Positions 23,877-37,112 are shown, numbered from the stretch's first letter. The stretch is 64,000 bases of DNA from Vicinamibacterales bacterium (GCA_035606665.1 DATNEY010000027.1:133787-197786), one strand, 5' to 3'. Numbers and translations are program-made. The notes: generated from the sequence alone by a model not told the origin.

Positions 23877-23922
23877 GAGTGGAAGTATTTCACGATGCGC
23901 CGACGCCGTCTGGAGCCGAAGA

Positions 23923-24120
23923 TCAGTCCGCCGCTGCCGGCGGGTGCCGGCGCGCCCCACCCATTCCCAGCCAGACCAGGCCGATTGAGACGGGACCGAT
24001 GAGCAGTTCAGCGTCCGACATGGTTGACCCCGTCGCCACGAGCTTGATCAGGAGGAAGCCCCCCGCGGTAATGAGCAGCGTCTGGCAAAGAAGAATGGGC
24101 AACTGATGCCGGCGTCTCAT
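23923..24120 (-). CDS. Possible small membrane protein (65 aa)
   Basis: MRRRHQLPILLCQTLLITAGGFLLIKLVATG...LLIGPVSIGLVWLGMGG gives two hydrophobic segments. Support is weak. Confidence 0.25.
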   Translation of the reverse strand: MRRRHQLPILLCQTLLITAGGFLLIKLVATGSTMSDAELLIGPVSIGLVWLGMGGARRHPPAAAD

Positions 24121-24277
24121 GGGAATCTGCGCGGCACTCAAGCAACACTTGTGCCTATGCTGTGAGTACTCCTGTCGAGTAACGGCCCGGCAGCAGGCGA
24201 ACACGAGCGGACGCACCCAGTGAAACTCTGCTTCGTCGCCAGGTAATTCCGGGACAAGGATAACGGCCGTCGACAAA

Positions 24278-25378
24278 TCACGGCGCCGACGGTTCCGGCC
24301 GAGACTGAACGCGCGTGAATCGCTGTTTGAGGCGCAAGAATGGGAACTCGAGCCACCGATAACTCAGCGCGGCGATAGCCATCGTCATTGCCAGGGCGAC
24401 GAAAGGCCTGAGCCAGCCATATGGGAAGCCCCTGCCCACCGCGATGCGGCTGAGATCCAACGCAAGGCGATGGAAGACGTAAAGTCCGTAAGAAATGCGG
24501 CCCAGATACTGAAGCGCCGGCAGCCGCAGCATGGGTAATGCCGCACCGCCGCCAAGCGTTGCCAGGATCAGGCCGAGACTCGTCAACGCGACCAGCGGGT
24601 AGGTGACGAGCGACGTCCACCCATCGAGACCGAAGACAAGGGCAACGACAATCAGCGCGACGGGTGCGAGCCCGAGAAGTCCCAGCCGAGTGGATCGTGA
24701 GAGCTGCGGAGACTCACCGCGCAGCGTCAGTGCGATGAGGGCGCCAATGGCGATGGGATCGAGACGTGCCAGGGTGTCAGTCCAGACAGCCGGATGGCGG
24801 ACATTGAGGGCCGCCAGCGCCAGTCGCGTCAACGTTGCCGTCACGAGTAGCCCGACCGCCACAGTCTTCAAACGCCTTTCGTCGAGACGGGACACGACCA
24901 GGGGCCAGACCAGATAGAACTGCTCTTCAATGGAGACGCTCCAGAGCGGCGTCACCCAGGACGAGGGATACCCCCAGGCCGCGACGGACCAGTTGCCCGC
25001 CAGGAGCGCGAACGCGCCCGCATACTTCGCCGGCAGTCCCGGCGATGGAATGAACACCGCGACGACCAGCGCCCCATAGTAGAGCGGCCAGATCCGCAGG
25101 ATGCGCCGCAGGTAGAACGCGCGCACGTCAATCTGCCGGAGTTTCTCTTTCTCGCGCAGCAGGAGTTCGGTAATCAAGTATGCGGAGAGGCAAAAGAACA
25201 GGTCGACACCGAACGCCCCGGCTCTGACGGCGGCAAGCCCCCACGGCGCCAGCCATCCTAGCGACGCGAAGGCAGAGAGTCGGTCCGGAATCGCGTGATG
25301 GACGAAGACCAAAAGAAATGCAAAGAACCGGAGCGAGTCGAGCTCCGGGTGATGAAAAGCTGCCACGCGCCGTGACAC
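24278..25378 (-). CDS. Acyltransferase family 3 (OafA-like) membrane protein
   Basis: LDSLRFFAFLLVFVHH start, and about 10 TM segments. Confidence 0.85.
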   Translation of the reverse strand: MSRRVAAFHHPELDSLRFFAFLLVFVHHAIPDRLSAFASLGWLAPWGLAAVRAGAFGVDLFFCLSAYLITELLLREKEKLRQIDVRAFYLRRILRIWPLYYGALVVAVFIPSPGLPAKYAGAFALLAGNWSVAAWGYPSSWVTPLWSVSIEEQFYLVWPLVVSRLDERRLKTVAVGLLVTATLTRLALAALNVRHPAVWTDTLARLDPIAIGALIALTLRGESPQLSRSTRLGLLGLAPVALIVVALVFGLDGWTSLVTYPLVALTSLGLILATLGGGAALPMLRLPALQYLGRISYGLYVFHRLALDLSRIAVGRGFPYGWLRPFVALAMTMAIAALSYRWLEFPFLRLKQRFTRVQSRPEPSAP

Positions 25379-25428
25379 GGTGCCGAACAGCCTAGTCGGA
25401 TGTCAGCAGGGTGTCCATGTCGGGCCCC

Positions 25429-26310
25429 TTACCGGCGCTTCGAGAACAGCGCATCGATCACCGCCCCAATCCCGGCTCCGATCAGCGCAGACGCGGGAAT
25501 CGTGCGCGGCTCGTCGTAGGTAGCGAGATACAGGCCGAAACCGCCGCCCGCCGCCGCGCCGATGATCAATCCGTTCAGGATCGTGTCACGCGCGGTCTTT
25601 AACTGCGATCCCCGCCGTTCGCGATCGGGGATGATCGCCGCGCGCAGACCGACGGTCACCGCCGCTTCTTCGCCGGCGTTACTGCCGCCGATGCGTCCGT
25701 GCACGAACGCATCGAGCCGAGGTGCGACACGGGCGCTGACCTCTCCAACCACAATGAGTGTGGAACCCCTGTTGGTGGACACGAACACTTCGTTCGGAGT
25801 TGCGCAATACGGAAGATAGCGACCTGCGCAGCCGCTGTGCGTGCGAGTCGACTCCCGGAAGGCGTCAAACTTTCCGATGCCGCCTCCGGCGAGGTAGGTG
25901 AAGCGGCCCTCCTGGGCTTTCGCGAGCACTGTCACGCTGCGCATGCCAAGCCGAAACCGATCGTCGTACGCGTGGCGGCCGTAGACACCGGTTTGTCCAT
26001 TGAGCATCGACGGCGTGTAGTCCTCCACCACATCGAAAGTCCGAGCCGTGATTGGCTGCATCCAATCCACGTCAACCACGAGCCAGCGCGTGAGCTCCAC
26101 TCGCATCGACGCCGTCAGCGGCATCGTCCACGGCGTGCCTTCGGTACCGACCGATGCCGCCCCGGCACCGACCGCGATGCCGGGAATTCGATCGGACGAT
26201 GGCCGCGGTCCCGTGTTCTGCGGCGTTTCGGCCGCCGCGAGAACTGGCGCTGCCAGAGCGGCACTGGCAAGAATGGCGCGGGCGATCGATGCAGGCAGGT
26301 AGCGTCTCAT
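25429..26310 (-). CDS. Secreted hypothetical protein with C-terminal glycine-zipper segment
   Basis: Signal peptide. C-terminal GLIIGAAAGGGFGLY...LIGAGIGAVIDALF. Confidence 0.5.
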   Translation of the reverse strand: MRRYLPASIARAILASAALAAPVLAAAETPQNTGPRPSSDRIPGIAVGAGAASVGTEGTPWTMPLTASMRVELTRWLVVDVDWMQPITARTFDVVEDYTPSMLNGQTGVYGRHAYDDRFRLGMRSVTVLAKAQEGRFTYLAGGGIGKFDAFRESTRTHSGCAGRYLPYCATPNEVFVSTNRGSTLIVVGEVSARVAPRLDAFVHGRIGGSNAGEEAAVTVGLRAAIIPDRERRGSQLKTARDTILNGLIIGAAAGGGFGLYLATYDEPRTIPASALIGAGIGAVIDALFSKRR

Positions 26311-26400
26311 TCGTGGCTCCTGCCGGGGTAATGCGTCTGAAAGGGTGTCAGGGGCTCAGTCAGGCTGTATCATTTGCACCGCCAGCGCGTCGGAGGTCCT

Positions 26401-27042
26401 ATGCCGCATAGACCCAAGTCGACGTGTCTCGTCCTTCTGGTCGCGATCGCTCTTGCCGCCCCGCTCCGGGCACAGAACCGGGCCAACTTTGCTGGAAAGT
26501 GGGTTCTGGTTCTTGAGAAGAGCACGCCAGCGATTCCCGAGCGCCACCAGCGGGAAATCACGATTACGCAGGAAGCGCAGTCGATCACGATGACGCAGAT
26601 CGCGTACACCGTCAGCGGAGTCTTCAGCCCGGGTTCGCGTGGCGGTGTCACGAACACCCCGCCTCGCGAAGAGTTTCAGTACTCAATTACCTATGAGTTC
26701 GACGGCGCCGATCACCCGACCCCAAAGGTGGAGGCGCCGAATCCACGACCCACGCCCTCCATGCCACCCACCGCAATAATTCAGGTGAGTCAGCGCCTCG
26801 ATTCGATCTATCGCGCAACCTGGACGCGCGACCAGCTCGTCATCATGACGCGCGAATCCACGACGACGGCCACGCCCTCTTCCGAGACTCACGCGCCTCG
26901 CGCGGTTTCGCGGAAGGCGTTGTCACTCGATCCCGATGGCCTGCTGGTCATCGACAGCATCAGGGTCGCGGACCCGACGCCCAATGGTCCAACGCAACCC
27001 GCACCCATGCCGGTGCATAGCGTGTATCGAAAGGCGTCGTGA
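26401..27042 (+). CDS. Secreted hypothetical protein
   Basis: MPHRPKSTCLVLLVAIALAAPLRAQ signal peptide. No recognised domain. Confidence 0.5.
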   Translation: MPHRPKSTCLVLLVAIALAAPLRAQNRANFAGKWVLVLEKSTPAIPERHQREITITQEAQSITMTQIAYTVSGVFSPGSRGGVTNTPPREEFQYSITYEFDGADHPTPKVEAPNPRPTPSMPPTAIIQVSQRLDSIYRATWTRDQLVIMTRESTTTATPSSETHAPRAVSRKALSLDPDGLLVIDSIRVADPTPNGPTQPAPMPVHSVYRKAS

Positions 27043-27178
27043 TGACAGCAGCGCGAGCGACCGGTCAGGTCGCGAGCCTCGCGACCGAAGCGAGACTTGG
27101 CTAAGAGCCTTTCATTGGAGCCGAGTCGAGCGAGAGAGCGAGTAGGGGGTCTGGGGGCAAAGCCCCCAGATCAGGAAA

Positions 27179-27358
27179 CGTCCCCGGCGGGATTGGCAGA
27201 CTTGCCAGAGGGGCGCCGCAACAGCGTAGAAGTATTGGCGTCCCCGAAGGGACTGAAAGACTTCTCGACGGCGAAGCGGTCCGGCGTAGAAGTGATGGCG
27301 TCCCCACGCGGAGTCGAAGACTTGTACACGTTGGTCGGGTCGGCGGTCATGGCTGCCT
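27179..27358. repeat. Three tandem ~60-nt units, each starting with a copy of the tRNA-Glu 3' end (CGTCCCC...)
   Basis: The units begin at 27179, 27239 and 27299. Unit 1 shares CGTCCCCGGCGGGA with the tRNA gene. Units 2 and 3 are preceded by (T/G)ATGG, matching TGGCGTCCCC, the antisense of GGGGACGCCA. Confidence 0.7.
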
Positions 27359-27474
27359 AGCGCACACGCCCATCCAGGTCGCTATTAGGCCCTCTTGCCT
27401 CGCGTTCTGTGCGGCTCTCGGTGTTGGCGCATATCTCCGACGCTTACACAGCGGGCTGATAGACAATATCCGGC

Positions 27475-28533
27475 ATGGCCTTCAGCGATGAGGATCTCGG
27501 CAGGTTGTGGGGCGTTCTCCGAGCCCAATTGGCAACTCTGTCGATCCAGAACATTCGCACCACTGCGGGTTCCGCCGGCTTTGATGTATCCAAGATCCCT
27601 GCGACATCTGAGGCGAGGACCGGCCTCGGAAGTCGGGCAGAGGTCCTGCCTGCGCTAGACGGCCTCGTGAATCGCCTCTCCGTCGAGACCAAAGCACAGA
27701 TCCTTAAAATGCTGGCCCGCCGACTCTTGGAGAACCCCGCGACGGCGGACGGGACCCTCGCGAGGCTGACCGAGCAAGGACTGTTACCCGACATTGCCGC
27801 CAAGCCAGCCGACAACGACCACCTAACTGACCTCGGATCCCGAAAGGCATACGAGTCGTCCTTGGGCGAATGCGTCGAAGCCGCTAAGGCGACCGGTGAA
27901 CCGATGGCGCTCCTCTGGTTCGACATTGACAAGTTCAAGAGCGTTAACGATGACAATGGCGGTCACGCGATAGGCGACGAGGCCTTGCGTTCGGTTGCAG
28001 CGATAGCAAGTTCCGCCGCAAGAGGCAAAGGGACTGCCTATCGGGTTGGCGGCGACGAGTTCGCGATTCTGCTTCCAAATCACTCGGCCCAAGAAGGCCT
28101 CGCGGTTGCGGAACGAATCAGGAAGACGGTAAACGAAGTGCCGCATACGTCCCGTCACTTGACGCTGAGCGTCAGCATCGGCGTTGCCGCATTTCCATCC
28201 CACGGACAAGATGGCCCGAGTCTTCAACATGCGGCCGACCAGGCGGCGTACGATGCCAAGAATCGAGGTCGGAATCTCGTTCGAGTCTCCGGGGAACCTG
28301 AGCCATCCAAGCCGTCTCAAGATCGGCAGCCGGAACGACGGGAACCGCCATCCGCTGCGCTGAGTGATGAACAGGGCCGACAGATCAAGCTCACCTACTT
28401 TCGAACGCGCACGGCTCGCTGTCCGCACGATGACGCAGTCATGAGCGTGACTGAGACGAACGGCCTTGGTGCAACCAACAACTCAATATTCGTGGTGTGC
28501 CCATACTGCGGACTCTCGGAAATGATCGAATAG
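27475..28533 (+). CDS. GGDEF-domain diguanylate cyclase with uncharacterised N-terminal domain and C-terminal Cys/His cluster
   Basis: DIDKFKSVNDDNGGHAIGDEAL and RVGGDEFAILL are intact. There is RGKG where the RxxD I-site would be. C-terminal RCPHDD...VVCPYCG. Confidence 0.85.
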   Translation: MAFSDEDLGRLWGVLRAQLATLSIQNIRTTAGSAGFDVSKIPATSEARTGLGSRAEVLPALDGLVNRLSVETKAQILKMLARRLLENPATADGTLARLTEQGLLPDIAAKPADNDHLTDLGSRKAYESSLGECVEAAKATGEPMALLWFDIDKFKSVNDDNGGHAIGDEALRSVAAIASSAARGKGTAYRVGGDEFAILLPNHSAQEGLAVAERIRKTVNEVPHTSRHLTLSVSIGVAAFPSHGQDGPSLQHAADQAAYDAKNRGRNLVRVSGEPEPSKPSQDRQPERREPPSAALSDEQGRQIKLTYFRTRTARCPHDDAVMSVTETNGLGATNNSIFVVCPYCGLSEMIE

Positions 28534-28700
28534 CGGCGGAGGCCCAGCCTGCAGCAGCCGGGTGGCGGGCCGGAAGGCCGGGACGTATTAGCACCTACCC
28601 CCGAGCCTGAAGTGCCCTCCTGCAGAGCGTGGCAGGCTGGAGCCAAGCAGTTGAGCGCCTGCCCTTGCGAACCTCGCCGATTCTGCCAAGATGACGGCTA

Positions 28701-29429
28701 ATGTCGGGTCCAGCACTCTCCACGTACATCGACGAGGACCGCGACCGCATTCTTGCGTGGGCTCGATACGTTTTCTATGCAGAGATCGAGTGCGAGCAGT
28801 ACAACGCGCACGAGATGGCGGAGGACGAATCGCCAATCGGTCGCACTCTCGTCCTCATGATGCAGTTCTATGCGGCCCTTTGGGTGGTTGCTGAGGGCTG
28901 GCAAGACTGCCCATTGACGGATGAAACGATCGACGAGCTGCTAACCGATCCTGCCTTTGAACAGAACGTTACACTGCTGCGGCGATTCCGAAACGGCGTC
29001 TATCACTACCAGCCCCAACAGATAAACGAAAAGGTACTCGCGTTTCTGCGCGACGGCTCAGAGCATGCCATCGCGTGGGCGTTCTTGCTGCATGACGAAT
29101 TCAAGCGGGTCGTGTGGGAACTCGCGCACCCGCGCGGTGTCAGCCCTTCACAGCAAATCGAGATCGCAGATTCACTTCGCGGCATCATCGGATGGCTGCC
29201 AAGTGATCTTCCCGAGGCGCAACCGCTTCGTGCTGCCGAGCAGTATCGCGAAGTCGCGGCTATGGTTCTGAAGGACGGAAGCCGGAATACCCCGCACGCT
29301 CGCGAACTGTTGGATGCCGTGAATCATGTTCGAGCGACCGCCCATGACGCTGCAGCCGGCTGGACCGCGCACAAGCGAGCGATGATTGAAGCGCTGAAGA
29401 AGCAGAAACGAATGGGCTTGGATACATGA
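28701..29429 (+). CDS. Hypothetical protein with HEPN-like RNxxxH motif (island ORF1)
   Basis: LLRRFRNGVYHYQ lies in a predicted helical context that aligns by eye with the motif region of ORF3/ORF4. The rest of the protein is not recognised. Confidence 0.5.
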   Translation: MSGPALSTYIDEDRDRILAWARYVFYAEIECEQYNAHEMAEDESPIGRTLVLMMQFYAALWVVAEGWQDCPLTDETIDELLTDPAFEQNVTLLRRFRNGVYHYQPQQINEKVLAFLRDGSEHAIAWAFLLHDEFKRVVWELAHPRGVSPSQQIEIADSLRGIIGWLPSDLPEAQPLRAAEQYREVAAMVLKDGSRNTPHARELLDAVNHVRATAHDAAAGWTAHKRAMIEALKKQKRMGLDT

Positions 29430-30358
29430 CAATGGGCGACGTCTTCTCGAAGATTCGATCTCTTGCGGTCAGCCACGTCGAGGCTGAGTCCGAACTTCGC
29501 ACCTCATTGCTGGCATTTGCGACCCGTCTGGTGGAGTCCACGTCCGGCGCGGACGTTTCGGTTTCCAGCGACAACACCACATTCGAAGAGGACGGCAGCG
29601 GCGACGCGGTTTATGGCCACCTGTTCTATTCACGCGGCACCGTTGCTGTAGCGTATCGGCACAGCGAAGAAGACACGATGCAATACCTGCATCAAGAGGA
29701 TCTTGACGAACCTACGTTTCACATCAAGAAGCTTGAGGACTGCTCCGAGAAGTGGCTGAGGGCGATCTCGCAACCGCGTGTCATTGATTCGCTCCTTCAG
29801 AAAATGGTTGCGGAGCTTGAGGCGCAACACACGTCAGTCAGCGCCAGCATTCGAAACATCGGACAAACGCTGAACGTGCCCGTGAGAAATGCTGAGGACG
29901 CTCTCGAAGCCGCAGCACGCGAGTTGGGCTATGACGATGTCATCAGCGAGTGGCAGAGTGCCCAAGCTGCCGTGTACCGCGATCCGCGCGATGCAATTAC
30001 GCGGGCTTCCAGCCTTGTCGAGACGGTCTGCAAGCATGTGCTGACCGCGAGGGGCGTCCAGTTTCCGTCAGACCTGACCATTCAGGGGTTGCTGAAGAGC
30101 GTGCTGAAGGTTCTCGGCTGGAGTCCTGAGTCGCAGGCCAACGAGGATCTTCGGAAAACAGCTGGCGGGATCATGACCGTCATTTTCAGTCTTGGCGCGT
30201 GGCGGACTCATGAAGGAACTGCGCACGGTCGCGCGCCTGGAGACCGCATGCCGACGCACGTCGAAGCGCGTCTCGCCGTCAACTTGGCAGGCGTGGCCTC
30301 GACGTTCCTGATGGAAGCGGCAAATCGGTCAAGAGACGGATCGCCATTAGGTTCTTGA
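29426..30358 (+). CDS. Abi_C (abortive infection C-terminus, HEPN-type) domain protein (island ORF2)
   Basis: The C-terminal RDAITRASSLVETVCKHVL...LLKSVLKVLGW...SLGAWRTHEGTAHGRAPGD...ARLAVNLAGVASTFL follows the Abi_C pattern as I recall it. There is a 4-nt ATGA overlap with ORF1. Confidence 0.75.
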   Translation: MTMGDVFSKIRSLAVSHVEAESELRTSLLAFATRLVESTSGADVSVSSDNTTFEEDGSGDAVYGHLFYSRGTVAVAYRHSEEDTMQYLHQEDLDEPTFHIKKLEDCSEKWLRAISQPRVIDSLLQKMVAELEAQHTSVSASIRNIGQTLNVPVRNAEDALEAAARELGYDDVISEWQSAQAAVYRDPRDAITRASSLVETVCKHVLTARGVQFPSDLTIQGLLKSVLKVLGWSPESQANEDLRKTAGGIMTVIFSLGAWRTHEGTAHGRAPGDRMPTHVEARLAVNLAGVASTFLMEAANRSRDGSPLGS

Positions 30359-30359
30359 C

Positions 30360-30830
30360 ATGGATCGAGACGAAATGGTTCGTGAGACGTACGCGCACTT
30401 TGGGCTGGCTATCTTCCGGGCCCAAGGCCTTGAACACGCCATCGTGAACGCAATGGTAGTTGCCCGAATGCCGGATCGTGCGCGAATTACCCGGAACGAC
30501 ATCGACGCCTTCATGGATCGGCACTTCAAGCAAACACTTGGTCAGCTCATGCGAGCTCTGAACAAGTTCGTCACAGTGCCTTCGGATGTGACAGACGTTC
30601 TCGACCGAGCGCTGACAAGACGCAATTGGCTGGCGCACGACTACTTCCGCGAGCGCGCCGCTGAGTTCATGACCAACAGTGGCTGCCTTCAGATGATCAG
30701 CGAACTACAGGCGGCGCAACAACTCTTTGCTGACGCCTCCGGGGCGCTTGATGACCTCGTTCGGCCCATCCGTGAGCAGTTCGGAATCACGGACGCAGCG
30801 ATTGCATCCGAAGTCGAGGCCAGCACGTGA
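30360..30830 (+). CDS. HEPN-like protein, RNxxxH motif (island ORF3)
   Basis: ALTRRNWLAHDYF. Paralogue of ORF4. Starts 1 nt after the ORF2 stop. Confidence 0.6.
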   Translation: MDRDEMVRETYAHFGLAIFRAQGLEHAIVNAMVVARMPDRARITRNDIDAFMDRHFKQTLGQLMRALNKFVTVPSDVTDVLDRALTRRNWLAHDYFRERAAEFMTNSGCLQMISELQAAQQLFADASGALDDLVRPIREQFGITDAAIASEVEAST

Positions 30831-31291
30831 CGTCACTCGACGATGTCTACCGCAAGTTCGGTGAGGTGGCAGAAGCGGCGCAGCTTCTGGAAACTGAGCT
30901 GGGAAACCACCTACTCGAGCGTCGCGGGCGTGAACACGGTTGGTATGAACAACCAAATCCCGTAGCCGCTCGGGCGGCGCTGGACCAAATTGACCGCAGC
31001 ACTCTAGGTCAGCTTCTCCGACAACTGCCAGGGCTCAAGGAGAACAGCGACGATGCGACTGACCTGCTCGTGCGCGCATTGGACGAACGGAACCGGCTGT
31101 TTCATTCCTTCTATCGCCAGCACAACTTCAGAAGGAATTCGACGGACGGCTGTCAGGTGATGCTCGATGATCTAGAGTCGATCCACGAGATCATCATCAC
31201 CGCGTATAAGTTCGTGCTGCGGACTGTAGGCATTGATTTGGACGCGATTGTCTTGGACAAGCTGCCATCCAAGCACCTCGACCTCGACTGA
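30827..31291 (+). CDS. HEPN-like protein, RNxxxH motif (island ORF4)
   Basis: ALDERNRLFHSFY. Shares TLGQL(M/L)R, D(V/L)L.RAL and GC(L/Q)(Q/V)M blocks with ORF3. 4-nt GTGA overlap with ORF3. Confidence 0.6.
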   Translation: MTSLDDVYRKFGEVAEAAQLLETELGNHLLERRGREHGWYEQPNPVAARAALDQIDRSTLGQLLRQLPGLKENSDDATDLLVRALDERNRLFHSFYRQHNFRRNSTDGCQVMLDDLESIHEIIITAYKFVLRTVGIDLDAIVLDKLPSKHLDLD

Positions 31292-31411
31292 CAGATCGCC
31301 TGTCAGGTTTCTTGTTGGCGGGCGGCGTACGGCTTTGGTATCATGCCCACTGGATCGAAATAGGCGCGCACCGCTCTCCCAAGGGCTAACGCGTGATCCC
31401 CGTCGATTACG

Positions 31412-31969
31412 GTGAATCGACGCGAGTTGACCATTTTCACCAAGATGGAGGGTAGTGGTGTGGCTGAAATCTCCTCGCCGTCGGAACGTCTTGCCGACGC
31501 CTACAAACGCCTCGTCGTCGCGGCTGCAAGTCATCGATCGGCATCCCACGAATTCACGAAGCCGTTTGCGGAAATCGAGCGTGCAATAAAGGACCTAAAC
31601 CTACCTGTCGCCACGTGGCAAAAGATTGCGGGCGGCGAGGACAACTACGGCGGCTATTGGAGCCGTGATGTTGGCTACGCCAGAACCAAGGGCATTTGGG
31701 GACTCGCGCTTCGGTCTGTGCGTGGTCACGAGTCTTGGGAGGAAGACGACAGTGAACAATGGCCTTTCGACGAAGCTCCGAGTTCGCTGCGCTTGGAAGC
31801 GTTAGAAAAGCTGCCCGACCTGCTCGAACAGATCATCAAGAACGCGGAAAAGACAACGCGGAAGCTCGAAGAGAAAACGCCTGAAGCGCAAGATCTGGCA
31901 CGTGCCATCAAGGATGCCTCCGCTGAACTACGTGAAGAGGCGAAGCGGCTTAAGGGGCGTGCGCGATGA
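31412..31969 (+). CDS. Hypothetical protein (island ORF5)
   Basis: 185-aa ORF with a Glu/Lys-rich helical C-terminus. An alternative start is MEGSGVAEI at 31445. No recognised domain. Confidence 0.45.
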   Translation: MNRRELTIFTKMEGSGVAEISSPSERLADAYKRLVVAAASHRSASHEFTKPFAEIERAIKDLNLPVATWQKIAGGEDNYGGYWSRDVGYARTKGIWGLALRSVRGHESWEEDDSEQWPFDEAPSSLRLEALEKLPDLLEQIIKNAEKTTRKLEEKTPEAQDLARAIKDASAELREEAKRLKGRAR

Positions 31970-32100
31970 CGACGATCAGCGAACTCGGCGGATTGTTTGT
32001 CCTTCTGTCGGCGCTCATGACTCCGCTGCTCTATGCGATCTACAAGGGACACGACGTCAGCTTTCATCTCCACTTGCGCCGTAGAAACAGGCGGCGATGA
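31966..32100 (+). CDS. Possible 44-aa single-pass membrane peptide (island ORF6)
   Basis: My translation is MTTISELGGLFVLLSALMTPLLYAIYKGHDVSFHLHLRRRNRRR. ATGA overlap with the ORF5 stop. It falls below the ORF-track size cutoff. Confidence 0.35.
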   Translation: MTTISELGGLFVLLSALMTPLLYAIYKGHDVSFHLHLRRRNRRR

Positions 32101-32155
32101 CATCATGAACGCGGTTCCAGTGTCGACTCCGTCGAAATTGTGGTCGGCGTGAGCG

Positions 32156-32420
32156 ATGGCATTACAGTGGTTTGACGGCGCCAGCTGGCAGGACTACATC
32201 ACGACGGTCATCTGCTCGGACTTCCGACAGTTTGGTGACGTGGTGAAGACGCGAATCCTGCCAGTCTTCGATGGCATAAAGGACGAGGCCGACGATGTTG
32301 CGATCCGCAGCTATCAGGACGGTTTGGCCCAAGCGTCGATACACCTTTGGGATGAACGGAGTCTCATCCACTCCGCTGAAATGACTGGCTTCCAGCATCA
32401 CGAGATGCTGACGTCGATGA
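32156..32420 (+). pseudogene. 5' fragment of an unknown gene abutting the recombinase remnant
   Basis: Track ORF 32156..32737 starts with ordinary-looking sequence (MALQWFDGASWQDYITTVICSDF...). After about 32420 it runs out of frame through recombinase-coding DNA. Confidence 0.3.
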
Positions 32421-33467
32421 AGTGGGCCACGATTCGTCCGACGCGAGATCTACCGCGGCGTCATCGTCTGGAACAAATCACGCAAGCGCGACGACACGCG
32501 CCAAGTGAATCAGCGGCCGCGCCCCGAGTCGGAGTGGCTGCGCTACGACGCACCCGATCTCCGCATCATCGACGAAGCGCTGTGGCGGCGCGTCCAGCAG
32601 AGACTGGAGGAAGGCGCGACGCTCGCCGCGCGGCTGACGAATGGCCGCTTGCAGGGCCGACCGCCGAAGACGCCAACCAACAACCTGCTGGCGGGCTTGG
32701 CGAACTGCGGCCTCTGCGGCGGCAGCTTGGTCGTTGAGAAAAGCCCCAGAAAGCACGGCCGGGTGCCGGAATACATCTGCTACCGCCACCGCGCGACCGG
32801 CGCATGCGAGAACGCGCTCCGCATGCCGGTCGCGGAGTTGAACGAGGCGGTCCTTCAGGCGATCGAAGCCCACGCCCTCACGCCCGAGGCGATCGAACAG
32901 GTGATCCACCTCTCAGAGCGGAGCGACACGGCTGAACACCAAGCGCGGCTGGCCCGAGAGCGGAAGGATGTCGAGAAGAAAGTCGGGCGGCTGGTCGCGG
33001 CCGTCGCCGAGGCCGGTGACGTGGCCTCGCTGGTCGAGAAGCTGCGTGAGTTGGAAGCGCGACTCAAGGCCATCGACCATGAGGTCAGAACCCTTCAGCC
33101 CGTCCCACACTTGCCCCCGAATGTGATCGAGAACCGGCTGGCCGAGTGGCGGCGGATTCTTCGAGGTTCGACCACTCAGGGCCGCACGGTGCTTCAGAAG
33201 ATTCTCAAAGGTCGGCTGACCTTCATGCCACGCGCGGACGGGCTCGGATACGACTTCTCAGGTCCGACGCGCTTCGACAAGCTCTTTACAGGCGTCTCCT
33301 GCCCGCCAGCGCCCGCGTGGATCGCGAACGATCGGCGGGGGCTGGAGAACACGAGCCCGGACGATACGTTCGATGGCGACTATGGGCGGCTGCTGGAACG
33401 CGCTTACGAGAAGAGCGTAAAAGTATTGGCGTCCCCGGCGGGAATCGAACCCGCGTCTCGGCCTTGA
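32421..33467 (+). pseudogene. Large serine recombinase lacking its N-terminal resolvase catalytic domain
   Basis: The frame opens right after the stop at 32418-32420 and reads ...EIYRGVIVWNKSRKRDD...LRIIDEALWRRVQ... (recombinase domain), NCGLCGGSL...YICYRHR..GAC (zinc-ribbon domain), then a coiled coil. No Ser-catalytic domain lies upstream. The 3' end runs about 40 nt into the tRNA-Glu gene. Confidence 0.75.
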
Positions 33468-33501
33468 AAGGGCCGCGTCCTAGCCGCTGGACGACGGGGA
33501 C
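33427..33501 (-). tRNA. tRNA-Glu (anticodon UUC), CCA encoded
   Basis: Hand-folded: GTCCCCG/CGGGGAC acceptor, GTCC/GGAC D stem, CGGCC-CUUUCAA-GGCCG anticodon arm, GCGGG-TTCGATT-CCCGC T arm, then GCCA. Confidence 0.9.
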
Positions 33502-33595
33502 ACACGAACCTGAGAATCCGCAGCACCCGTTCGTCCCGTCGAACCCGTAGGACCCGCAGTACCCGCGCTCTCGCAGCCGTTAAGATTAACACGCC

Positions 33596-35182
33596 ATGCG
33601 GCCACGCCCTCTGACCTCCGTCCTCGTACTTACCCTTGCCCTCTGCCCCCTGCCCTCTGCCCTCGAGGCTGTGCAGGCCCAGCGTTCATTCAATGTCGTC
33701 GAAGCGACCATCGCGGACATCCATGCGGCGTTCAAGGCAAAGCGGCTGACGTGCGCGGCGCTCGTGGATGCGTACCTCGCGCGAATTGCGGCGTACGACA
33801 AACAGGGGCCATCGCTGAACGCAGTCGTCGTTACGAACCCTGAAGCGCCGAAGCGCGCGGCCGAGTTGGACCGCGAGTACGCGCGACGTGGATTGACCGG
33901 CCCGCTCCATTGCATCCCAATGGTCGTGAAGGACAACTACGAGACGATCGGACTGCAAAGCGCCAACGGATCGAAATCGATGGAGGGCTTCGTCTCGGAC
34001 AAGGATGCCTTCCAGGTTGCCCGCATCAAAGCCGCCGGCGCCATCGTCATCGCCAAGACCAACATGGCTGAGTTCGCGTTCAGCCCTCAGGAATCGCTGA
34101 GTTCCATCCAGGGACACACGAAGAACCCGTACGGTCTCGATCGCGTGCCGGCCGGATCGAGCGGCGGCACCGCCGCATCCGTTGCCGCGAGCTTCGCGGC
34201 AGTCGGACTCGGCAGCGACACTGGCAACTCAATCCGCGGGCCGTCTGCGCACAACGCCCTCGTAGGGATTCGTTCAACGATGGGCCTCACGAGCCGCGCG
34301 GGCGTGGTCCCGCTGAGCTACCTGGCCGATATTGCCGGCCCGATGGCGAGGACGGTTGAGGACGCGGTTCGTGTCTTCCAGGTCGTCGTCGGCGAAGACC
34401 CGGAGGATCCAGTCACGGCAAGAAGTCACGGCCGGAAGATTCCGAACTACAGCGCATCGCTTGTCCGCACAGGACTCAAGGGCGCGCGGATCGGCATTCT
34501 GCGACAGGCCTACGAGCGGCCGAATCAAACCGTCGACGATGAAGTCGTCAAAGTGTTCACGCGCGCGCTCGAAGACCTGAAGAAGGCGGGCGCGACGGTT
34601 GTTGACGGCGTCACGATCGAACGCGTGCAACGGCAGCAGGTCCAGGGCGGCGGTTCGTGCCGCGGCTTCAAGTACGACATCAATGACTATCTGGCCACGC
34701 GGGGCCAGAAAGCGCCCGTTCACTCCCTTGAAGAGATCGTGGCATCGGGCAAGTTCGACCCCTCGGTCGCCAACCGCTTGAAGCAAGCACAGTCTGGCAA
34801 TCTTGGCGCGGGCCCGGACAGCGAGGCGTGCAAGGCAGACGCCGGGTATCGCGAAGCATTCGGCGCCGCAATCATCAAGGTGATGGACGAACAAAAACTG
34901 GACGCGCTCGTGTACCCGACCTGGAGTCACCCGCCGCGGCCCATCGTCGCTGACGCTCAGACACCCACCGGCGACAACAGCCAGGTGTATTCGCCGACGT
35001 CGGGCTTCCCCGCCATCACCGTGCCGATGGGCTACACGCGCGAGACGCTGCCGGCCGGCATGACGTTCCTCGGCCGGGCGTGGGACGAGCCGCGTCTCAT
35101 CAAGCTTGCGTACGGATACGAGCAGGCGACGAAGCATCGACACGCTCCCGCCTCGACGCCGCCGCTCGGCGCCGTGAAGTAG
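33596..35182 (+). CDS. Amidase (amidase-signature family), secreted
   Basis: Signal peptide. GGSSGG-type block PAGSSGGTAASVAA...GSDTGNSIRGPSA. Confidence 0.88.
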   Translation: MRPRPLTSVLVLTLALCPLPSALEAVQAQRSFNVVEATIADIHAAFKAKRLTCAALVDAYLARIAAYDKQGPSLNAVVVTNPEAPKRAAELDREYARRGLTGPLHCIPMVVKDNYETIGLQSANGSKSMEGFVSDKDAFQVARIKAAGAIVIAKTNMAEFAFSPQESLSSIQGHTKNPYGLDRVPAGSSGGTAASVAASFAAVGLGSDTGNSIRGPSAHNALVGIRSTMGLTSRAGVVPLSYLADIAGPMARTVEDAVRVFQVVVGEDPEDPVTARSHGRKIPNYSASLVRTGLKGARIGILRQAYERPNQTVDDEVVKVFTRALEDLKKAGATVVDGVTIERVQRQQVQGGGSCRGFKYDINDYLATRGQKAPVHSLEEIVASGKFDPSVANRLKQAQSGNLGAGPDSEACKADAGYREAFGAAIIKVMDEQKLDALVYPTWSHPPRPIVADAQTPTGDNSQVYSPTSGFPAITVPMGYTRETLPAGMTFLGRAWDEPRLIKLAYGYEQATKHRHAPASTPPLGAVK

Positions 35183-36009
35183 TGCAAACCACGCTTTTCA
35201 CACTCGCGGCACTTGCCTGCTTCGCCGCGAACAGTCTGCTCACCCGCGGCGCGCTCGGGCCCGGGTGGCTGGACGCGCCAGGATTCACGATCGTCAGACT
35301 CACAACCGGCGCTGCGATGCTGGCTGTCCTGTTGCGGCTTCGAGGGACTGCCGCCGGAGAACGTGGCTCCTGGCGATCGGCGTTCGCTCTCGCAGGTTAC
35401 GCCGTCGCGTTCACGATCGCGTACACGCGCATCGGCGCCGGCGTAGGGGCGTTGCTCCTCTTCGGCGCAGTTCAAGTGACGATGATCGGAACGGGACTCG
35501 TGAAGGGTGAACGCCCACTCGCTCGCGACTGGCTCGGACTGATCCTGGCCGCCGGCGGTCTCGCCTGGCTCACGTTGCCGGGGGCAAGCGCGCCGGATCT
35601 CACCGGCGCGCTGCTCATGGTGATCGCCGGCGCGGCGTGGGGCGCGTATTCCATCATCGGCCGGCGCAGCCGCGATCCGCTCGCCGCGACCGCGGGTAAT
35701 TTCTGGCGCGCGGCCATATTGGGCGCGATCGCGCTTGGCTGGTTTCACGCCCCCGGCTCGCTGACGTGGCCGGGCGTGCTCCTCGCCGCCACCTCCGGGG
35801 CCATCGCCTCCGGCGTTGGATACACCTTTTGGTACAGCGCACTCCCGCATCTCACCGCCTGGCGCGCGGCGCTGGTGCAGCTCTCAGTGCCGGTGATCAC
35901 CGCGCTCGCGGCCATCGCGCTGCTCAATGAGACCTTCTCGTCGCGCCTGGCCATCGCGACGGTGCTGGTCGCGGCGGGGGTGGGTGTCACGTTGGCCCGC
36001 CGGACGTGA
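35182..36009 (+). CDS. EamA/DMT-family transporter
   Basis: About ten hydrophobic segments and duplicated EamA-like halves. The in-frame GTG at 35182 overlaps the amidase stop by 1 nt; the track ORF starts at 35080. Confidence 0.8.
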   Translation: MQTTLFTLAALACFAANSLLTRGALGPGWLDAPGFTIVRLTTGAAMLAVLLRLRGTAAGERGSWRSAFALAGYAVAFTIAYTRIGAGVGALLLFGAVQVTMIGTGLVKGERPLARDWLGLILAAGGLAWLTLPGASAPDLTGALLMVIAGAAWGAYSIIGRRSRDPLAATAGNFWRAAILGAIALGWFHAPGSLTWPGVLLAATSGAIASGVGYTFWYSALPHLTAWRAALVQLSVPVITALAAIALLNETFSSRLAIATVLVAAGVGVTLARRT

Positions 36010-36063
36010 TTGGCCCGGCTGGGTCTTAAGACCCGGCCTCCATTTGAGCTATCTTGTTGGGCG

Positions 36064-36357
36064 ATGTCCGAACGAACGGCCCCTTCACTGGTGAAGCTCG
36101 ATGAACTCCTGGCGGCGATAAAGACGCTGCCGGCCAGCTCTGCGAAAGACGAGATCCTCGAGACCACTGAGGCGCTGAGGCGCGCCGTCGCCGCGTTTCA
36201 CATGGAGGCCATCCGCTTCCGCATGTACTCCGTAGAGCGTCAGTTGCGGAAGGACGGCAACGCGAAGTGCCAGGAAGCCTTCGAGAGCGTGCGGCACGAG
36301 CTCGAGACGGCGGGTTTCCACACGAGATCGCACGCCGCGCCGGGACAAACCACGTAG
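36064..36357 (+). CDS. Hypothetical helical protein (97 aa)
   Basis: Internal ATG MSERTAPSLVKLDELL... No recognised domain. Confidence 0.35.
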   Translation: MSERTAPSLVKLDELLAAIKTLPASSAKDEILETTEALRRAVAAFHMEAIRFRMYSVERQLRKDGNAKCQEAFESVRHELETAGFHTRSHAAPGQTT

Positions 36358-36360
36358 ATT

Positions 36361-36396
36361 GGTGATTTGGCGATCTGGCGATTTGGCGATCTGGCT
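36361..36396. repeat. Octamer tandem repeat GG(C/T)GAT(C/T)T x4.5
   Basis: GGTGATTT GGCGATCT GGCGATTT GGCGATCT GGCT. Same repeat family as the left arm of 38172-38262. Confidence 0.6.
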
Positions 36397-37112
36397 CACG
36401 CCAACAGAGCCGCCAGCGCTGAATCTACCGGAGTAAGGGAAGAGATCTCGGCGACCTTCACGTCCCGCGCGGGCAGGCGGCGCCAGTTGAACCAGATCGG
36501 TCTGATGCCCGCCGCCAGTGCGCCGGCGATGTCGGTGTCCCAGGCGTCGCCAACCATCACTGTCTCCTCAGCCTGCAGACCGAGTGCATCGAGAGCCGCC
36601 TGGTAGATCCCAGTCGCCGGCTTCGCGATGCCTACGGCTTCCGACGTGATGAGCGCATCGACATGCGCTTCGAGCGCGCAGCCTTTCATCTTCTGTTGCT
36701 GTTCAGCGGTGAGGTTGTTCGTAACGATGGCGATGGAGAGATCGCGAGCTCTGAGTACTGTGAGGAGTTCGACGGCGCCTGCGACCGCGCGCCAGTTGGA
36801 TTGATAGGCGGCGCGATACCGCATCGCCAGGTCCCATGCACGTGACTGACCTGTTTCGTCCGCACCAGCGTCCGCGAGCAGCCGCCGGAATCGCTCGCGT
36901 CGCGCGTCGTCGATCGATATGCGGCCCGCAACTACTTCACGATGAATGCTTTCCAGCACGTCGCTGTGGCGGCGCCGGAGCTCGGCGAGACTCCAGACCG
37001 AGAACGTCGCGTCCTCGCCGCGCAGCACCGCCGTGGCGCATTCGGTCGCGTGGTTGTGATCGAAAAGCGTGTCGTCCAGATCGAACAACACGCCCCGCAA
37101 GGCGTGCGTCAT
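36396..37112 (-). CDS. HAD-superfamily hydrolase
   Basis: VLFDLDDTLFD (motif I), VTNN (motif II-like), GDAWDTDI (motif IV). Confidence 0.8.
   Translation of the reverse strand: MTHALRGVLFDLDDTLFDHNHATECATAVLRGEDATFSVWSLAELRRRHSDVLESIHREVVAGRISIDDARRERFRRLLADAGADETGQSRAWDLAMRYRAAYQSNWRAVAGAVELLTVLRARDLSIAIVTNNLTAEQQQKMKGCALEAHVDALITSEAVGIAKPATGIYQAALDALGLQAEETVMVGDAWDTDIAGALAAGIRPIWFNWRRLPARDVKVAEISSLTPVDSALAALLA

What the first reader, a model, noticed from the sequence alone, without database searches (positions are those of the whole stretch)
27179..33501. Decayed ~6.3-kb integrated island at tRNA-Glu(UUC) with recognisable att-type direct repeats
At the right end, tRNA-Glu (33427-33501, minus strand) is overlapped at its 3' half by the end of a recombinase ORF. 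The 24-nt string AGCGTAAAAGTATTGGCGTCCCCG (33414-33437), which spans the tRNA 3' end plus flanking DNA, recurs at 27223-27246 with one mismatch. The DNA between the repeats is visibly more AT-rich than its surroundings and encodes only accessory-type genes. The recombinase has lost its catalytic domain, so the island is probably immobilised.
Basis: seen in the sequence. Interest (0 to 1): 0.6.

Follow-up and report, generated by a model that had tools for sequence, protein, structure and literature searches.

The report
Decayed tRNA-Glu island, three-site attP array
A 6.25-kb remnant of a mobile element sits in the end of a tRNA-Glu gene; a serine-type integrase whose gene runs into the tRNA put it there, and it still carries two spare, unused docking sites that match the tRNA-Glu variants of other hosts.

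Summary
A relative with 87% amidase identity has the same tRNA-Glu and right flank but no island.

The anatomy is richer than described:
- **Recombinase.** It is the C-terminal ~340 residues of a large serine recombinase (LSR). The catalytic domain is gone.
- **Family.** It belongs to a large, mostly acidobacterial LSR clade. In this clade the gene's 3' end runs antisense into the 3' end of a tRNA gene, so attP lies inside the integrase ORF.
It and a third copy are two complete, unrecombined attP-type sites. Each is an imperfect inverted repeat around a central dinucleotide: GG (used), GA and AC.
- **Independent confirmation.** A separate contig (L178) carries the same GG|GA|AC array uninterrupted after the LSR 3' end.
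- **Host alleles.** GG, GA and AC are tRNA-Glu alleles at which the closest LSR relatives are found integrated.

My inference is that the array is a set of alternative attP "keys" for allelic tRNA-Glu targets. In the unintegrated form the integrase tail ends in a conserved Ala-Ala, which integration swaps out. The function of both features is untested.

The parts
27151..27169 (.). Hairpin CTGGGGGC-AAA-GCCCCCAG in the host flank just outside attL (the native DNA downstream of the original tRNA 3' end).
   Evidence: Read from the sequence. It was not called as an intrinsic terminator because there is no T run. Its role is not established.
27160..27219 (+). attL (B-O-P'). It holds the displaced original tRNA-Glu 3' end (27179-27192, CGTCCCCGGCGGGA, no CCA encoded) with central dinucleotide GG at 27186-27187. 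This is followed by the P' arm of attP unit 1 (CGGGATTGGCAGACTT).
   Evidence: - There is a 14-nt identity to the tRNA 3' end.
- The left arm is unrelated to the P arms, and the right arm matches the P' arms of units 2 and 3 and of L142.
- The P' arm is identical to that of unit 1 in the uninterrupted array of L178.
27220..27279 (+). attP-type unit 2 (P-O-P'), unrecombined. It reads GAAGT-N12-GA-N12-ACTTC, with central dinucleotide GA at 27246-27247.
   Evidence: - Dyad symmetry is 14 of 22 positions, centred exactly on GA (binomial P about 1e-4).
- It is colinear with unit 2 (GA) of L178.
27280..27339 (+). attP-type unit 3 (P-O-P'), unrecombined, with central dinucleotide AC at 27306-27307.
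   Evidence: - Dyad symmetry is 14 of 22 positions, centred on AC.
- It is colinear with unit 3 (AC) of L178.
- Its P' arm and tail are homologous to L142.
27178..27360 (+). Detached 3' piece of the integrase ORF, which would be its tail in the circular form. It reads TSPAGLADLPEGRRNS / VEVLASPKGLKDFSTAKRSG / VEVMASPRGVEDLYTLVGSAVMAA*, in frame with the recombinase remnant across the crossover. It ends in Ala-Ala-stop (27358-27360).
   Evidence: - Translation is.
- The frame arithmetic follows from the ORF coordinates.
- P0269/L178 encodes the uninterrupted equivalent.
27475..28533 (+). Cargo: a GGDEF-domain protein (diguanylate-cyclase type) with a Cys-rich C-terminus.
   Evidence: - Pfam GGDEF, 1.6e-37.
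- TIGR00254, 3e-39.
- GC3 0.65.
28701..29429 (+). Cargo: a 242-aa protein with no family match.
   Evidence: No match.
29426..30358 (+). Cargo: an AbiJ-like abortive-infection protein (Abi_C domain).
   Evidence: - Pfam Abi_C, 1.3e-12.
- PADLOC AbiJ, 2.4e-11.
30360..31291 (+). Cargo: two adjacent paralogous small proteins (156 and 154 aa) with overlapping stop and start.
   Evidence: BLASTP gives 29% identity, E 9e-13. Neither has a family match.
31412..31969 (+). Cargo: a 185-aa protein with no reliable family match.
   Evidence: The only hit is a weak NsnC match at 1.2e-3.
32156..32430 (+). Truncated last cargo ORF and the internal deletion junction. GC jumps from about 0.57 to about 0.65 here. 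Everything that intact relatives carry between cargo and integrase residue ~245-255 is missing (HTH regulator, primase/helicase, small ORFs).
   Evidence: - The composition step is seen.
- tblastn homology to the LSR starts at 32442, and possibly at about 32418.
- Intact elements L084, L085, L174 and L175 carry HTH and Prim-Pol/DUF5906/VapE modules.
32427..33467 (+). Large serine recombinase remnant: the second half of the Recombinase domain, the zinc ribbon and the C-terminal region. There is no catalytic domain. The last 13 codons are antisense tRNA sequence (..LASPAGIEPASRP*).
33411..33470 (+). attR (P-O-B'). The P arm of unit 1 (AGCGTAAAAGTATTGG), which supplies CCA and the tRNA 3' end, is joined at the central GG (33437-33438) to the host tRNA body.
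   Evidence: Alignment A2 shows the left arm equals the P arms of L2, L3, L142 and L084, and the right arm equals the empty site of L003.
33427..33501 (-). Intact tRNA-Glu(UUC). Nucleotides about 66-76 are now supplied by the element.
   Evidence: It is identical to the tRNA of the empty-site relative L003, except that CCA is now encoded.

Best explanation
Window 27187-33437 (6,251 bp between crossover centres) is the remnant of a small integrative element of a mainly acidobacterial (Vicinamibacterales-type) family.

**How it arrived (steps 1-2 are shown by sequence comparison).**
1. These elements integrate with a large serine recombinase. Its gene is the last gene of the element, and its 3' end contains attP.
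2. The crossover is at a central dinucleotide that corresponds to tRNA positions 65/66, the junction of the T stem and acceptor stem. The element's P arm rebuilds the tRNA 3' end.
3. The original tRNA 3' end was displaced to attL at 27179-27192.

**The array (existence shown; purpose inferred).**
- This element carried a tandem array of three attP-type sites, read in frame as the integrase's C-terminal tail. Their central dinucleotides are GG, GA and AC.
- Integration here used unit 1 (GG, this host's allele). Units 2 and 3 therefore ended up intact next to attL.
- Large serine recombinases only join sites with identical central dinucleotides. The array most likely serves as alternative attP sites that let one element enter hosts whose tRNA-Glu differs at positions 65/66.

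**Decay.**
- An internal deletion later removed the regulatory and replication module and the first ~245-255 codons of the integrase.
- What remains is lower-GC cargo (GGDEF protein, AbiJ-like protein and others) and an integrase stub. The stub is protected from further deletion by its overlap with the tRNA gene.
- The island cannot move by itself.
For: **1. Island and its ends**
- The repeats are non-random, and four copies exist.
- Alignment A2 sorts the copies cleanly into P-B' (attR), B-P' (attL), P-P' (units 2 and 3, and L142) and B-B' (empty site L003).
- L003 (87% amidase identity) is syntenic at window 19249-23880 and 33416-40198. It has the identical tRNA-Glu but none of the island genes.
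- The composition shift is seen.

**2. Recombinase type and family habit**
- Full-length homologs carry Resolvase, Recombinase and Zn_ribbon_recom domains. S11 and R9 are invariant.
- The profile hits TP901-1, SPbeta and TnpX recombinases in the PDB.
- In about 40 of 80 metagenome loci the ORF stops inside a minus-strand tRNA: Glu-UUC mostly, also Glu-CUC, Ala-CGC, Arg-ACG and Arg-CCU.
- About 79 of 120 homolog C-termini are antisense tRNA sequence.

**3. Crossover position**
- The dyad symmetry of 17 P-P' units peaks exactly at the dinucleotide after GTCCCC (9.9 of 22, against about 5.5 at other shifts). Units 2 and 3 score 14 of 22.
- Three complete elements have the same dinucleotide at both ends: window GG/GG, L174 AA/AA and L175 AC/AC.

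**4. The array pre-exists in the element**
- L178/P0269 carries the LSR 3' end followed by three uninterrupted units GG|GA|AC and then the stop.
- It is colinear with the window's attR-left joined to its attL-right. Homology ends right after the stop codon.
- Other arrays also have differing centres: L094 AG|AA, L150 GA|AC, and L099 (tRNA-Arg type) AG|TG.

**5. Match to host alleles**
- The tRNA-Glu(UUC) genes in the fetched loci carry AA, AC, GA, GG, AT or AG at this position.
- LSRs at least 70% identical to the window's are found at GG (window), GA (L084, L088) and AC (L089).

**6. Established knowledge**
- Central-dinucleotide identity decides which serine-integrase att sites can recombine. 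This is used to build orthogonal att pairs (PMC3936721).

**7. Decay**
- Intact relatives are about 10-11 kb and carry HTH and primase/helicase modules.
- Here only residues from about 256 onward remain.
Against: - No activity was tested. The crossover dinucleotide is inferred from symmetry and from three attL/attR pairs.
- One decayed relative (L095) has AA at its attL-like site but GA at attR. This fits only if one site mutated or the two sites are not partners.
- The left host flank is not conserved in the empty-site relative. Window 23880-27178 has no counterpart in L003, which has an M28 peptidase gene there. The empty site is therefore matched on the tRNA side, and only more distantly on the other side.
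- Most family members seen in the P-P' form have one unit. Arrays are a minority: 5 were found.
- L178 is itself a remnant (only about the last 115 codons of the LSR) on a 1.5-kb contig.
- That the array widens host range is an inference. The units could instead be kept for protein-level reasons, since all seven measured periods are multiples of 3.
- Whether the low-GC cargo arrived with the element or later cannot be told.
Confidence: 0.8

Rival explanations
1. Tandem accretion scars. Units 2 and 3 would be the junction remnants of two earlier elements that integrated one after another at this tRNA in this lineage and were later almost completely deleted.
For: - Tandem arrays of islands at tRNA genes are common and leave hybrid att sites (PMC7192596, section on tandem arrays).
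- The units are P-P' hybrids in form.
Against: - Hybrid sites made at this host's tRNA would carry its GG centre, but the units carry GA and AC.
- Two whole elements would have had to be deleted exactly to the edges of a minimal attP, leaving exact 60-bp, in-frame spacing with no stop codon.
- The same GG|GA|AC array is contiguous with an LSR 3' end in an unrecombined state in the independent contig L178.
- Similar compact arrays occur in L094, L150 and L099.
Confidence: 0.05
2. The repeats are real parts of the element but are not alternative crossover sites. They would serve either as accessory recombinase-binding sites, as subsites II and III do in Tn3/gamma-delta res (for synapsis or directionality), or as a repeated peptide module of the integrase tail kept by selection on the protein.
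For: - All measured unit periods are multiples of three: 60 and 60 in the window; 57 and 63 in L178; 45 in L094; 45 in L150; 63 in L099.
- The ORF stays open through the array to a conserved Ala-Ala-stop.
- Spacer indels between the window and L178 are in multiples of 3.
- Small serine resolvases do use accessory subsites (general knowledge).
Against: - Each unit has the full two-arm symmetry of a crossover site, with intact CCA and acceptor sequence in its P arm. A mere binding site or peptide repeat would not need these.
- The centres are exactly the positions that differ between units, and they match natural tRNA-Glu alleles used by close relatives.
- In L099 the second unit, not the first, is the one recombined with the tRNA. 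This shows that different units can be used.
- Accessory sites are not known for large serine recombinases (general knowledge).
Confidence: 0.15
3. There is no mobile element. The repeats would be local duplications of the tRNA 3' end, and the genes between them ordinary variable chromosomal genes.
For: The region left of attL (23880-27178) is also variable relative to L003 without any att signature. This neighbourhood is therefore plastic in any case.
Against: - A recombinase remnant lies exactly at the tRNA.
- Hundreds of full-length homologs sit in the same position at tRNA genes.
- Complete elements have matching attL and attR.
- An empty site exists in L003.
- The composition shifts across the island.
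Confidence: 0.02

Closest known systems
Integrative elements and prophages that use large serine recombinases (phiC31, Bxb1, A118, TP901-1, SPbeta SprA/YokA)
   Same: - Same enzyme architecture in the full-length relatives: Resolvase, Recombinase and zinc ribbon domains.
- Short att sites built as imperfect inverted repeats around a central dinucleotide.
- attP lies next to the int gene.
   Different: - The target is a tRNA gene. Use of tRNA genes by serine integrases was described in 2020 as not previously reported, with only 14 of 297 computed cases (PMC7192596).
- attP lies inside the integrase ORF.
- Some elements carry two or three tandem attP-type sites with different central dinucleotides.
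- The window's copy has lost its catalytic domain.
Classical tRNA-gene genomic islands with tyrosine integrases (Islander-type; P4-like, pSAM2/AICE-like)
   Same: - Integration into the 3' part of a tRNA gene, with the element restoring the tRNA.
- The displaced 3' fragment forms a direct repeat at the far end.
- The integrase gene lies next to the tRNA.
- Accessory or defence cargo and frequent decay.
   Different: - The recombinase family is serine, not tyrosine.
- The identity block is short (10-14 nt) and the crossover is at a 2-nt centre.
- The integrase ORF overlaps the tRNA on the opposite strand.
Integration-dependent immunity of mycobacteriophage BPs and relatives (clusters G, I, N, P)
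   Same: - attP lies inside an ORF, so integration at a tRNA gene changes the protein's C-terminus.
[quoted passage not shown]
- The BPs integrase also has a C-terminal proteolysis signal (PMC4557955).
- Here the unintegrated integrase tails end in a conserved Ala-Ala that integration replaces.
   Different: - In BPs the split gene is the repressor and the integrase is a tyrosine recombinase. Here the affected gene is the serine integrase itself.
- Degradation of the Ala-Ala form is not shown.
SSV1-type 'suicidal' archaeal integrases (attP within the int gene)
   Same: [quoted passage not shown]
   Different: - Those are tyrosine recombinases of archaeal viruses and plasmids, and integration splits and inactivates the gene.
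- Here only the last ~15-60 codons are exchanged, and the enzyme body stays intact.
Engineered orthogonal serine-integrase att pairs that differ only in the central dinucleotide
   Same: One integrase serves several att pairs that are kept apart only by their 2-nt overlap sequences (PMC3936721). This is the principle proposed here for the GG|GA|AC array.
   Different: Those are laboratory constructs. A natural tandem set on one element, tuned to allelic host targets, was not found in the literature searched.

Membership tests
Large serine recombinase (serine integrase) | N-terminal resolvase-type catalytic domain with the nucleophilic serine | tested here: not met
   The window copy has no PF00239 match and aligns only to residues 256-595 of P0004. 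Full-length homologs do have PF00239, with invariant S11 and R9. The window gene is therefore a remnant of a member, not a functional member.
Large serine recombinase (serine integrase) | Recombinase domain (PF07508) followed by the zinc beta-ribbon domain (PF13408) | tested here: met
   - PF13408, 5.1e-10.
- PF07508, 4.3e-8, covering profile positions 49-101 only.
- 70-74% identity to full-length three-domain proteins.
Large serine recombinase (serine integrase) | att sites of about 40-60 bp built as imperfect inverted repeats around a central crossover dinucleotide that is identical in the partner sites | tested here: met
   - Symmetry peaks at one dinucleotide in 17 P-P' units.
- attL and attR share it in the window (GG), L174 (AA) and L175 (AC).
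- One decayed locus, L095, does not (AA versus GA).
Large serine recombinase (serine integrase) | Catalyses attP x attB recombination, with excision needing a directionality factor | not testable with these tools
   No experiment was possible, and no candidate directionality factor was identified.
Integrated genomic island at a tRNA gene | Intact tRNA at one end and a displaced copy of its 3' end at the other, in direct orientation | tested here: met
   The tRNA is at 33427-33501. A 14-nt copy of its 3' end lies at 27179-27192, preceded by unrelated host flank.
Integrated genomic island at a tRNA gene | Absent from the same site in a related genome | tested here: met
   L003 has the identical tRNA-Glu, the same right flank (amidase 87%, EamA, HAD and onward) and the same distal left flank (window 19249-23880), but no island genes. 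Caveat: the 3.3 kb immediately left of attL is also not shared.
Integrated genomic island at a tRNA gene | Composition differs from the host | tested here: met
   Cargo GC is 0.585, below every equal-sized window elsewhere (minimum 0.607). GC3 is 0.61-0.67 against 0.73-0.80.
Integration-dependent C-terminal degron switch (BPs type) | attP inside an ORF, so that integration changes the C-terminus | tested here: met
   - The frame is continuous across the reconstructed attP.
- P0269 encodes the uninterrupted form.
- Family tails are either antisense tRNA sequence or P'-encoded.
Integration-dependent C-terminal degron switch (BPs type) | The episomal form ends in an ssrA-like tag that causes proteolysis | tested here: inconclusive
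   - 22 of about 28 P'-encoded tails and 12 of 14 read from DNA end in Ala-Ala.
- The Ala and stop codons vary and the preceding residues vary, which points to selection on the protein.
- Proteolysis itself was not tested.
AbiJ-type abortive infection protein (cargo gene 29426-30358) | Match to the AbiJ / Abi_C models | tested here: met
   - PADLOC AbiJ, 2.4e-11, over profile positions 101-279 of 281.
- Pfam Abi_C, 48 bits against a cut-off of 24.
- Function was not tested.

The most novel reading that the evidence does not exclude
A large clade of serine integrases has attP built into the 3' end of its own gene and targets tRNA genes. Two consequences would follow.

1. **A natural key-ring of attP sites.** Some elements carry a tandem set of two or three complete attP sites that differ in the crossover dinucleotide (here GG|GA|AC). 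Each would be tuned to a different allele of the host tRNA at positions 65/66, so one element could integrate precisely, and restore the tRNA, in hosts that would otherwise be incompatible.
2. **Sensing of integration state.** The free form of the integrase ends in a conserved Ala-Ala tail, a likely protease tag. Integration replaces this tail with a tRNA-antisense-encoded one, so integrase stability would depend on whether the element is integrated.
Probability: 0.4. Interest if true: 0.75.

Novelty: new variant of a known kind. Interest (0 to 1): 0.6.

Why it matters
As a locus, this is an ordinary decayed island carrying likely defence and signalling cargo. Three things make it worth more attention.

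1. **Serine integrases at tRNA genes.** These were thought to be rare or unproven. Here they form a large, coherent family, with thousands of clusters at E below 1e-30.
2. **A possible host-range device.** If the tandem attP sites with different crossover dinucleotides are alternative keys, they would be a natural counterpart of the orthogonal att sites that synthetic biologists engineer. They would also explain how a site-specific element copes with allelic variation in its target.
3. **A built-in sensor of integration state.** Having attP inside the integrase ORF, with a conserved Ala-Ala end in the free form, parallels integration-dependent immunity in mycobacteriophages.

Both ideas are directly testable with short DNA substrates and one purified or expressed integrase. 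The family could also supply integrases with ready-made, naturally orthogonal site sets.

Tried and rejected
- **Tandem Repeats Finder** found nothing at the left end, because the units are only about 70% alike. The generic repeat finder and pattern search found them.
- **attL ends in most family loci** could not be examined. The contigs are short or the elements exceed the 10-kb flank. Only the window, L174 and L175 gave both ends.
- **Viral collection scans** found no close relatives. The elements are not recognised as viruses.
- **Rfam** found only the tRNA in 26000-35000.
- **The promoter/terminator scan** at the left end found nothing.
- **A further att copy at the synteny break near 23880** was considered. 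There is only a GAAGTATT 8-mer, consistent with chance, and no tRNA fragment. The idea was rejected.
- **Cargo genes near related integrases:** none were found, apart from unrelated GGDEF domains.
- **Tandem-accretion scars** as the origin of units 2 and 3 was considered and rejected after L178.
- **Literature searches** for tRNA-targeting serine integrases in Acidobacteria, for natural multiple attP sites, and for attP within a serine integrase gene found no description. The library lacks most subscription journals, so absence there is not proof.

Full report
**1. Checking the observation**

ARAGORN finds tRNA-Glu(UUC) at 33427-33501 on the minus strand, and Rfam confirms it at 66.9 bits.

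ORF 32505-33467 ends 41 nt inside the tRNA gene. It has Pfam Zn_ribbon_recom and the second half of the Recombinase domain, but no Resolvase catalytic domain.

The cargo at 27361-32426 has GC 0.585. That is lower than every equal-sized window elsewhere in the 64 kb (mean 0.645, sd 0.018, minimum 0.607). Its genes have GC3 of 0.61-0.67, against 0.73-0.80 in flanking genes.

Two things go beyond it:
- There are four copies of the tRNA 3' end motif, at 27179, 27239, 27299 and 33430. The three on the left are spaced exactly 60 bp apart.
- The recombinase remnant itself has host-like composition (GC 0.657, GC3 0.80).

**2. Source and empty site**

The window comes from a 712-kb metagenome contig. 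The same island occurs, identical, in a second data set.

The amidase gene right of the tRNA finds many acidobacterial (Vicinamibacterales-type) MAGs. The closest, L003 (87% identity), has an identical tRNA-Glu. It is syntenic with window 33416-40198 on one side and 19249-23880 on the other, but has none of the island genes. In L003 the tRNA is abutted directly by an M28 peptidase gene and has no encoded CCA.

One caveat applies. The 3.3 kb just left of the island (23880-27178: an acyltransferase-3 gene and two hypothetical proteins, host-like GC) is also not shared with L003.

**3. The recombinase and its family**

The remnant is 70-74% identical to residues 256-595 of ~600-aa proteins that have Resolvase, Recombinase and Zn_ribbon_recom domains. 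Their alignment has an invariant S11 and R9. Its profile matches TP901-1 integrase, SPbeta YokA/SprA and TnpX among solved structures. These are large serine recombinases (LSRs).

The C-termini of the homologs are striking. About 79 of 120 end in peptides that are antisense translations of tRNA 3' ends, such as ..ASPTGFEPVFWP..WCARRESNPRPTGSKPVALS and ..WRALQDSNLRPPGS. In about 40 of 80 metagenome loci the ORF stops inside a minus-strand tRNA gene. This is mostly Glu-UUC, but also Glu-CUC, Ala-CGC, Arg-ACG and Arg-CCU.

A profile search of 1.8 billion cluster representatives shows the same tails down to about 35-40% identity, with 3,307 clusters below 1e-30.

Intact elements are about 10-11 kb. 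They carry an HTH regulator, a Prim-Pol/DUF5906 or VapE-type primase-helicase, small ORFs, and the integrase last. They are not in the viral collection.

A 2020 survey stated that use of t(m)RNA genes by serine integrases had not been reported. It found only 14 of 297 computed cases (PMC7192596).

**4. Anatomy of the att sites**

Aligning the four window copies with an empty site and with relatives sorts them cleanly:

| Copy | Left arm | Right arm | Type |
|---|---|---|---|
| 33411-33470 | P arm (AGCGTAAAAGTATTGG) | host tRNA body | attR (P-B') |
| 27160-27219 | unrelated host flank, with a hairpin at 27151-27169 and no CCA | P' arm (CGGGATTGGCAGACTT) | attL (B-P') |
| 27220-27279 | P arm | P' arm | P-P' (unit 2) |
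| 27280-27339 | P arm | P' arm | P-P' (unit 3) |

Each P-P' unit is an imperfect inverted repeat: GAAGT, 12 nt, a dinucleotide, 12 nt, ACTTC. Over 17 P-P' units from the family, the complementarity between arms peaks exactly at the dinucleotide that follows GTCCCC (9.9 of 22 positions, against about 5.5 at other shifts). The window's two units score 14 of 22, with binomial P about 1e-4.

This dinucleotide corresponds to tRNA positions 66 and 65, the junction of the acceptor and T stems.

Three complete elements have the same dinucleotide at both ends: window GG/GG (27186-7 and 33437-8, 6,251 bp apart), L174 AA/AA and L175 AC/AC. One decayed locus, L095, has AA at its attL-like site and GA at attR. 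I cannot explain this other than by mutation or non-partnership.

**5. The array is part of the element**

The centres of the three left-end units are GG, GA and AC. Hybrid sites left by earlier integrations at this tRNA would carry GG, so units 2 and 3 were not made here.

Joining attR-left to attL-right gives one open frame..DGDYGRLLERAYEKSVKVLASPAGLADLPEGRRNS VEVLASPKGLKDFSTAKRSG VEVMASPRGVEDLYTLVGSAVMAA*.

A search with this predicted tail found exactly one protein, P0269. It lies on an independent 1.5-kb contig (L178). Its DNA reads LSR 3' end, unit GG, unit GA, unit AC, stop, uninterrupted. It is colinear with the reconstructed window sequence. The arms are nearly identical, the spacers differ by 3-nt indels (periods 57 and 63, against 60 and 60), and homology ends right after the stop codon.

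This shows that the array exists in the unrecombined state and that the window island is the product of recombination at unit 1.

Compact arrays with differing centres also occur in L094 (AG|AA, 45 bp) and L150 (GA|AC, 45 bp). In a tRNA-Arg-targeting relative, L099 (AG|TG, 63 bp), the second unit is the one joined to the tRNA.

**6. What the array is for (inference)**

Among 32 tRNA-Glu(UUC) genes in the fetched loci, the two central positions read AA (12), AC (5), GA (4), GG (3, plus 5 in a GACCCC variant), AT (2) and AG (1). The ten nucleotides to their 3' side (acceptor strand, discriminator, CCA) are otherwise constant.

The integrases closest to the window's (at least 70% identity, same P arm) sit at GG (window), GA (L084, L088) and AC (L089) alleles.

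Serine integrases join only sites with identical central dinucleotides, which is the basis of engineered orthogonal att pairs (PMC3936721). A fixed P arm plus a choice of centres would therefore let one element integrate into, and precisely restore, several tRNA-Glu alleles.

I consider this the best reading of the array. It remains untested, and arrays are a minority in the family. The main rival is that the units are accessory binding sites or a peptide repeat. That rival is supported by the strict in-frame spacing. It is weakened by the complete two-arm structure of each unit, by the intact tRNA 3' end in each P arm, and by L099.

**7. The tail**

P'-encoded tails are variable in sequence and length, yet they mostly end in Ala-Ala. 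That holds for 22 of about 28 among the first 120 homologs. It also holds for 12 of 14 read from DNA, with all four Ala codons and all three stop codons used, and for many distant representatives. This points to selection on the protein end.

Integration replaces this tail with a tRNA-antisense-encoded one. The closest precedent is integration-dependent immunity in mycobacteriophage BPs. There attP lies in the repressor gene, the viral form carries an ssrA-like tag, and the integrase also has a C-terminal proteolysis signal (PMC4557955). Another parallel is the SSV-type archaeal integrase with attP inside the gene (PMC8371274). A degron role here is a hypothesis only.

**8. Decay and cargo**

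Homology to the integrase starts at about 32418-32442, at a sharp GC step. A truncated low-GC ORF (32156 onward) runs into it out of frame. The regulatory and replication module and the first ~245-255 codons are gone, so the island cannot move on its own. attL and attR look intact, so mobilisation in trans is conceivable.

The cargo comprises:
- a GGDEF protein;
- a 242-aa protein with no family match;
- an AbiJ-like protein (Pfam Abi_C, PADLOC AbiJ 2.4e-11);
- two paralogous small proteins;
- a 185-aa protein with no reliable family match.

No relative of these genes was found beside other family integrases. Whether they arrived with the element is open.

**9. Verdict**

As a locus it is an ordinary decayed island.

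The wider value lies in three things it exposes:
- a large family of tRNA-targeting serine integrases;
- attP inside the integrase ORF;
- a conserved three-site attP array whose centres match host tRNA alleles.

I rate it a new variant of a known kind, with interest 0.6.

Noticed in passing
window 23880-27178: This 3.3-kb stretch just left of attL holds an acyltransferase-3 gene (24278-25378), a 293-aa protein and a 222-aa protein. Its GC is host-like. It has no counterpart in the otherwise syntenic relative L003, which has an M28 peptidase gene there instead. No att-like sequence marks its left edge. It may be an older, ameliorated insertion or a simple replacement.
   Followed up: partly
window 32418-32442; L101 ~465; L096 ~822; L095 ~6881-6892: Independent integrase remnants in different contigs are cut at nearly the same place: residues ~244-270, just before or after the conserved YRGVVVWNK motif. 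L095 has a frameshift at a G run at the same point. Many database homologs of 290-350 aa have only the zinc-ribbon domain. This could be chance, a deletion hotspot, or retention of a DNA-binding C-terminal fragment.
   Followed up: partly
P'-encoded tails, e.g. window 27352-27360, L083 7199-7207, L094 ~3537-3545, L142, L178 790-798: The unintegrated-form integrase tails end in Ala-Ala-stop in about 80% of cases. This holds despite variable preceding sequence, variable tail length, and varying Ala and stop codons. It resembles a C-terminal protease tag.
   Followed up: partly
L099 1210-1330: A relative that targets tRNA-Arg(ACG) has two tandem att units (period 63 bp, centres AG and TG). The second unit is joined to the tRNA and the first is left intact inside the integrase tail.
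   Followed up: partly
L175 1-687 (minus strand): A second, divergent recombinase-like gene (weak Recombinase and zinc-ribbon hits) lies just outside the attL of a complete 10.9-kb element and points away from it.
   Followed up: no
L096 3215-3310: An isolated att-type unit (centre AA) with a P'-type tail reading ..ASPTGTGRHWQSVIRREVNLAA* lies 1.4 kb downstream of a truncated integrase remnant whose own tail is degenerate. The arrangement suggests nested or tandem remnants.
   Followed up: no
window 27475-28533: The GGDEF cargo protein has a ~110-aa N-terminal region without family match and a C-terminal Cys-rich end (..RCPHDD...CPYCG..) that looks like a small zinc ribbon. It gave no PADLOC match.
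   Followed up: no
window 30360-31291: Two adjacent cargo genes with overlapping stop and start encode paralogous ~155-aa proteins (29% identity, E 9e-13) with no family match.
   Followed up: partly
window 39750-40750: A GC peak of 0.71-0.76 stands out from the ~0.64 background in the composition profile.
   Followed up: no
window 16141-16215: A tRNA-Lys(UUU) gene lies on the plus strand 11 kb left of the island. In L134 and L172 a tRNA-Lys(UUU) lies close to the targeted tRNA-Glu. I did not examine it for integrated elements.
   Followed up: no
L172 and L173: The neighbourhoods of two full-length family integrases (both from sample ERZ26167216) are crowded with IS elements (IS21, ISL3, DDE_Tnp_1). 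L173's integrase is in the unrecombined P-P' form inside a 168-kb contig with no tRNA nearby. How a P-P' site comes to lie in such a large replicon was not resolved.
   Followed up: no
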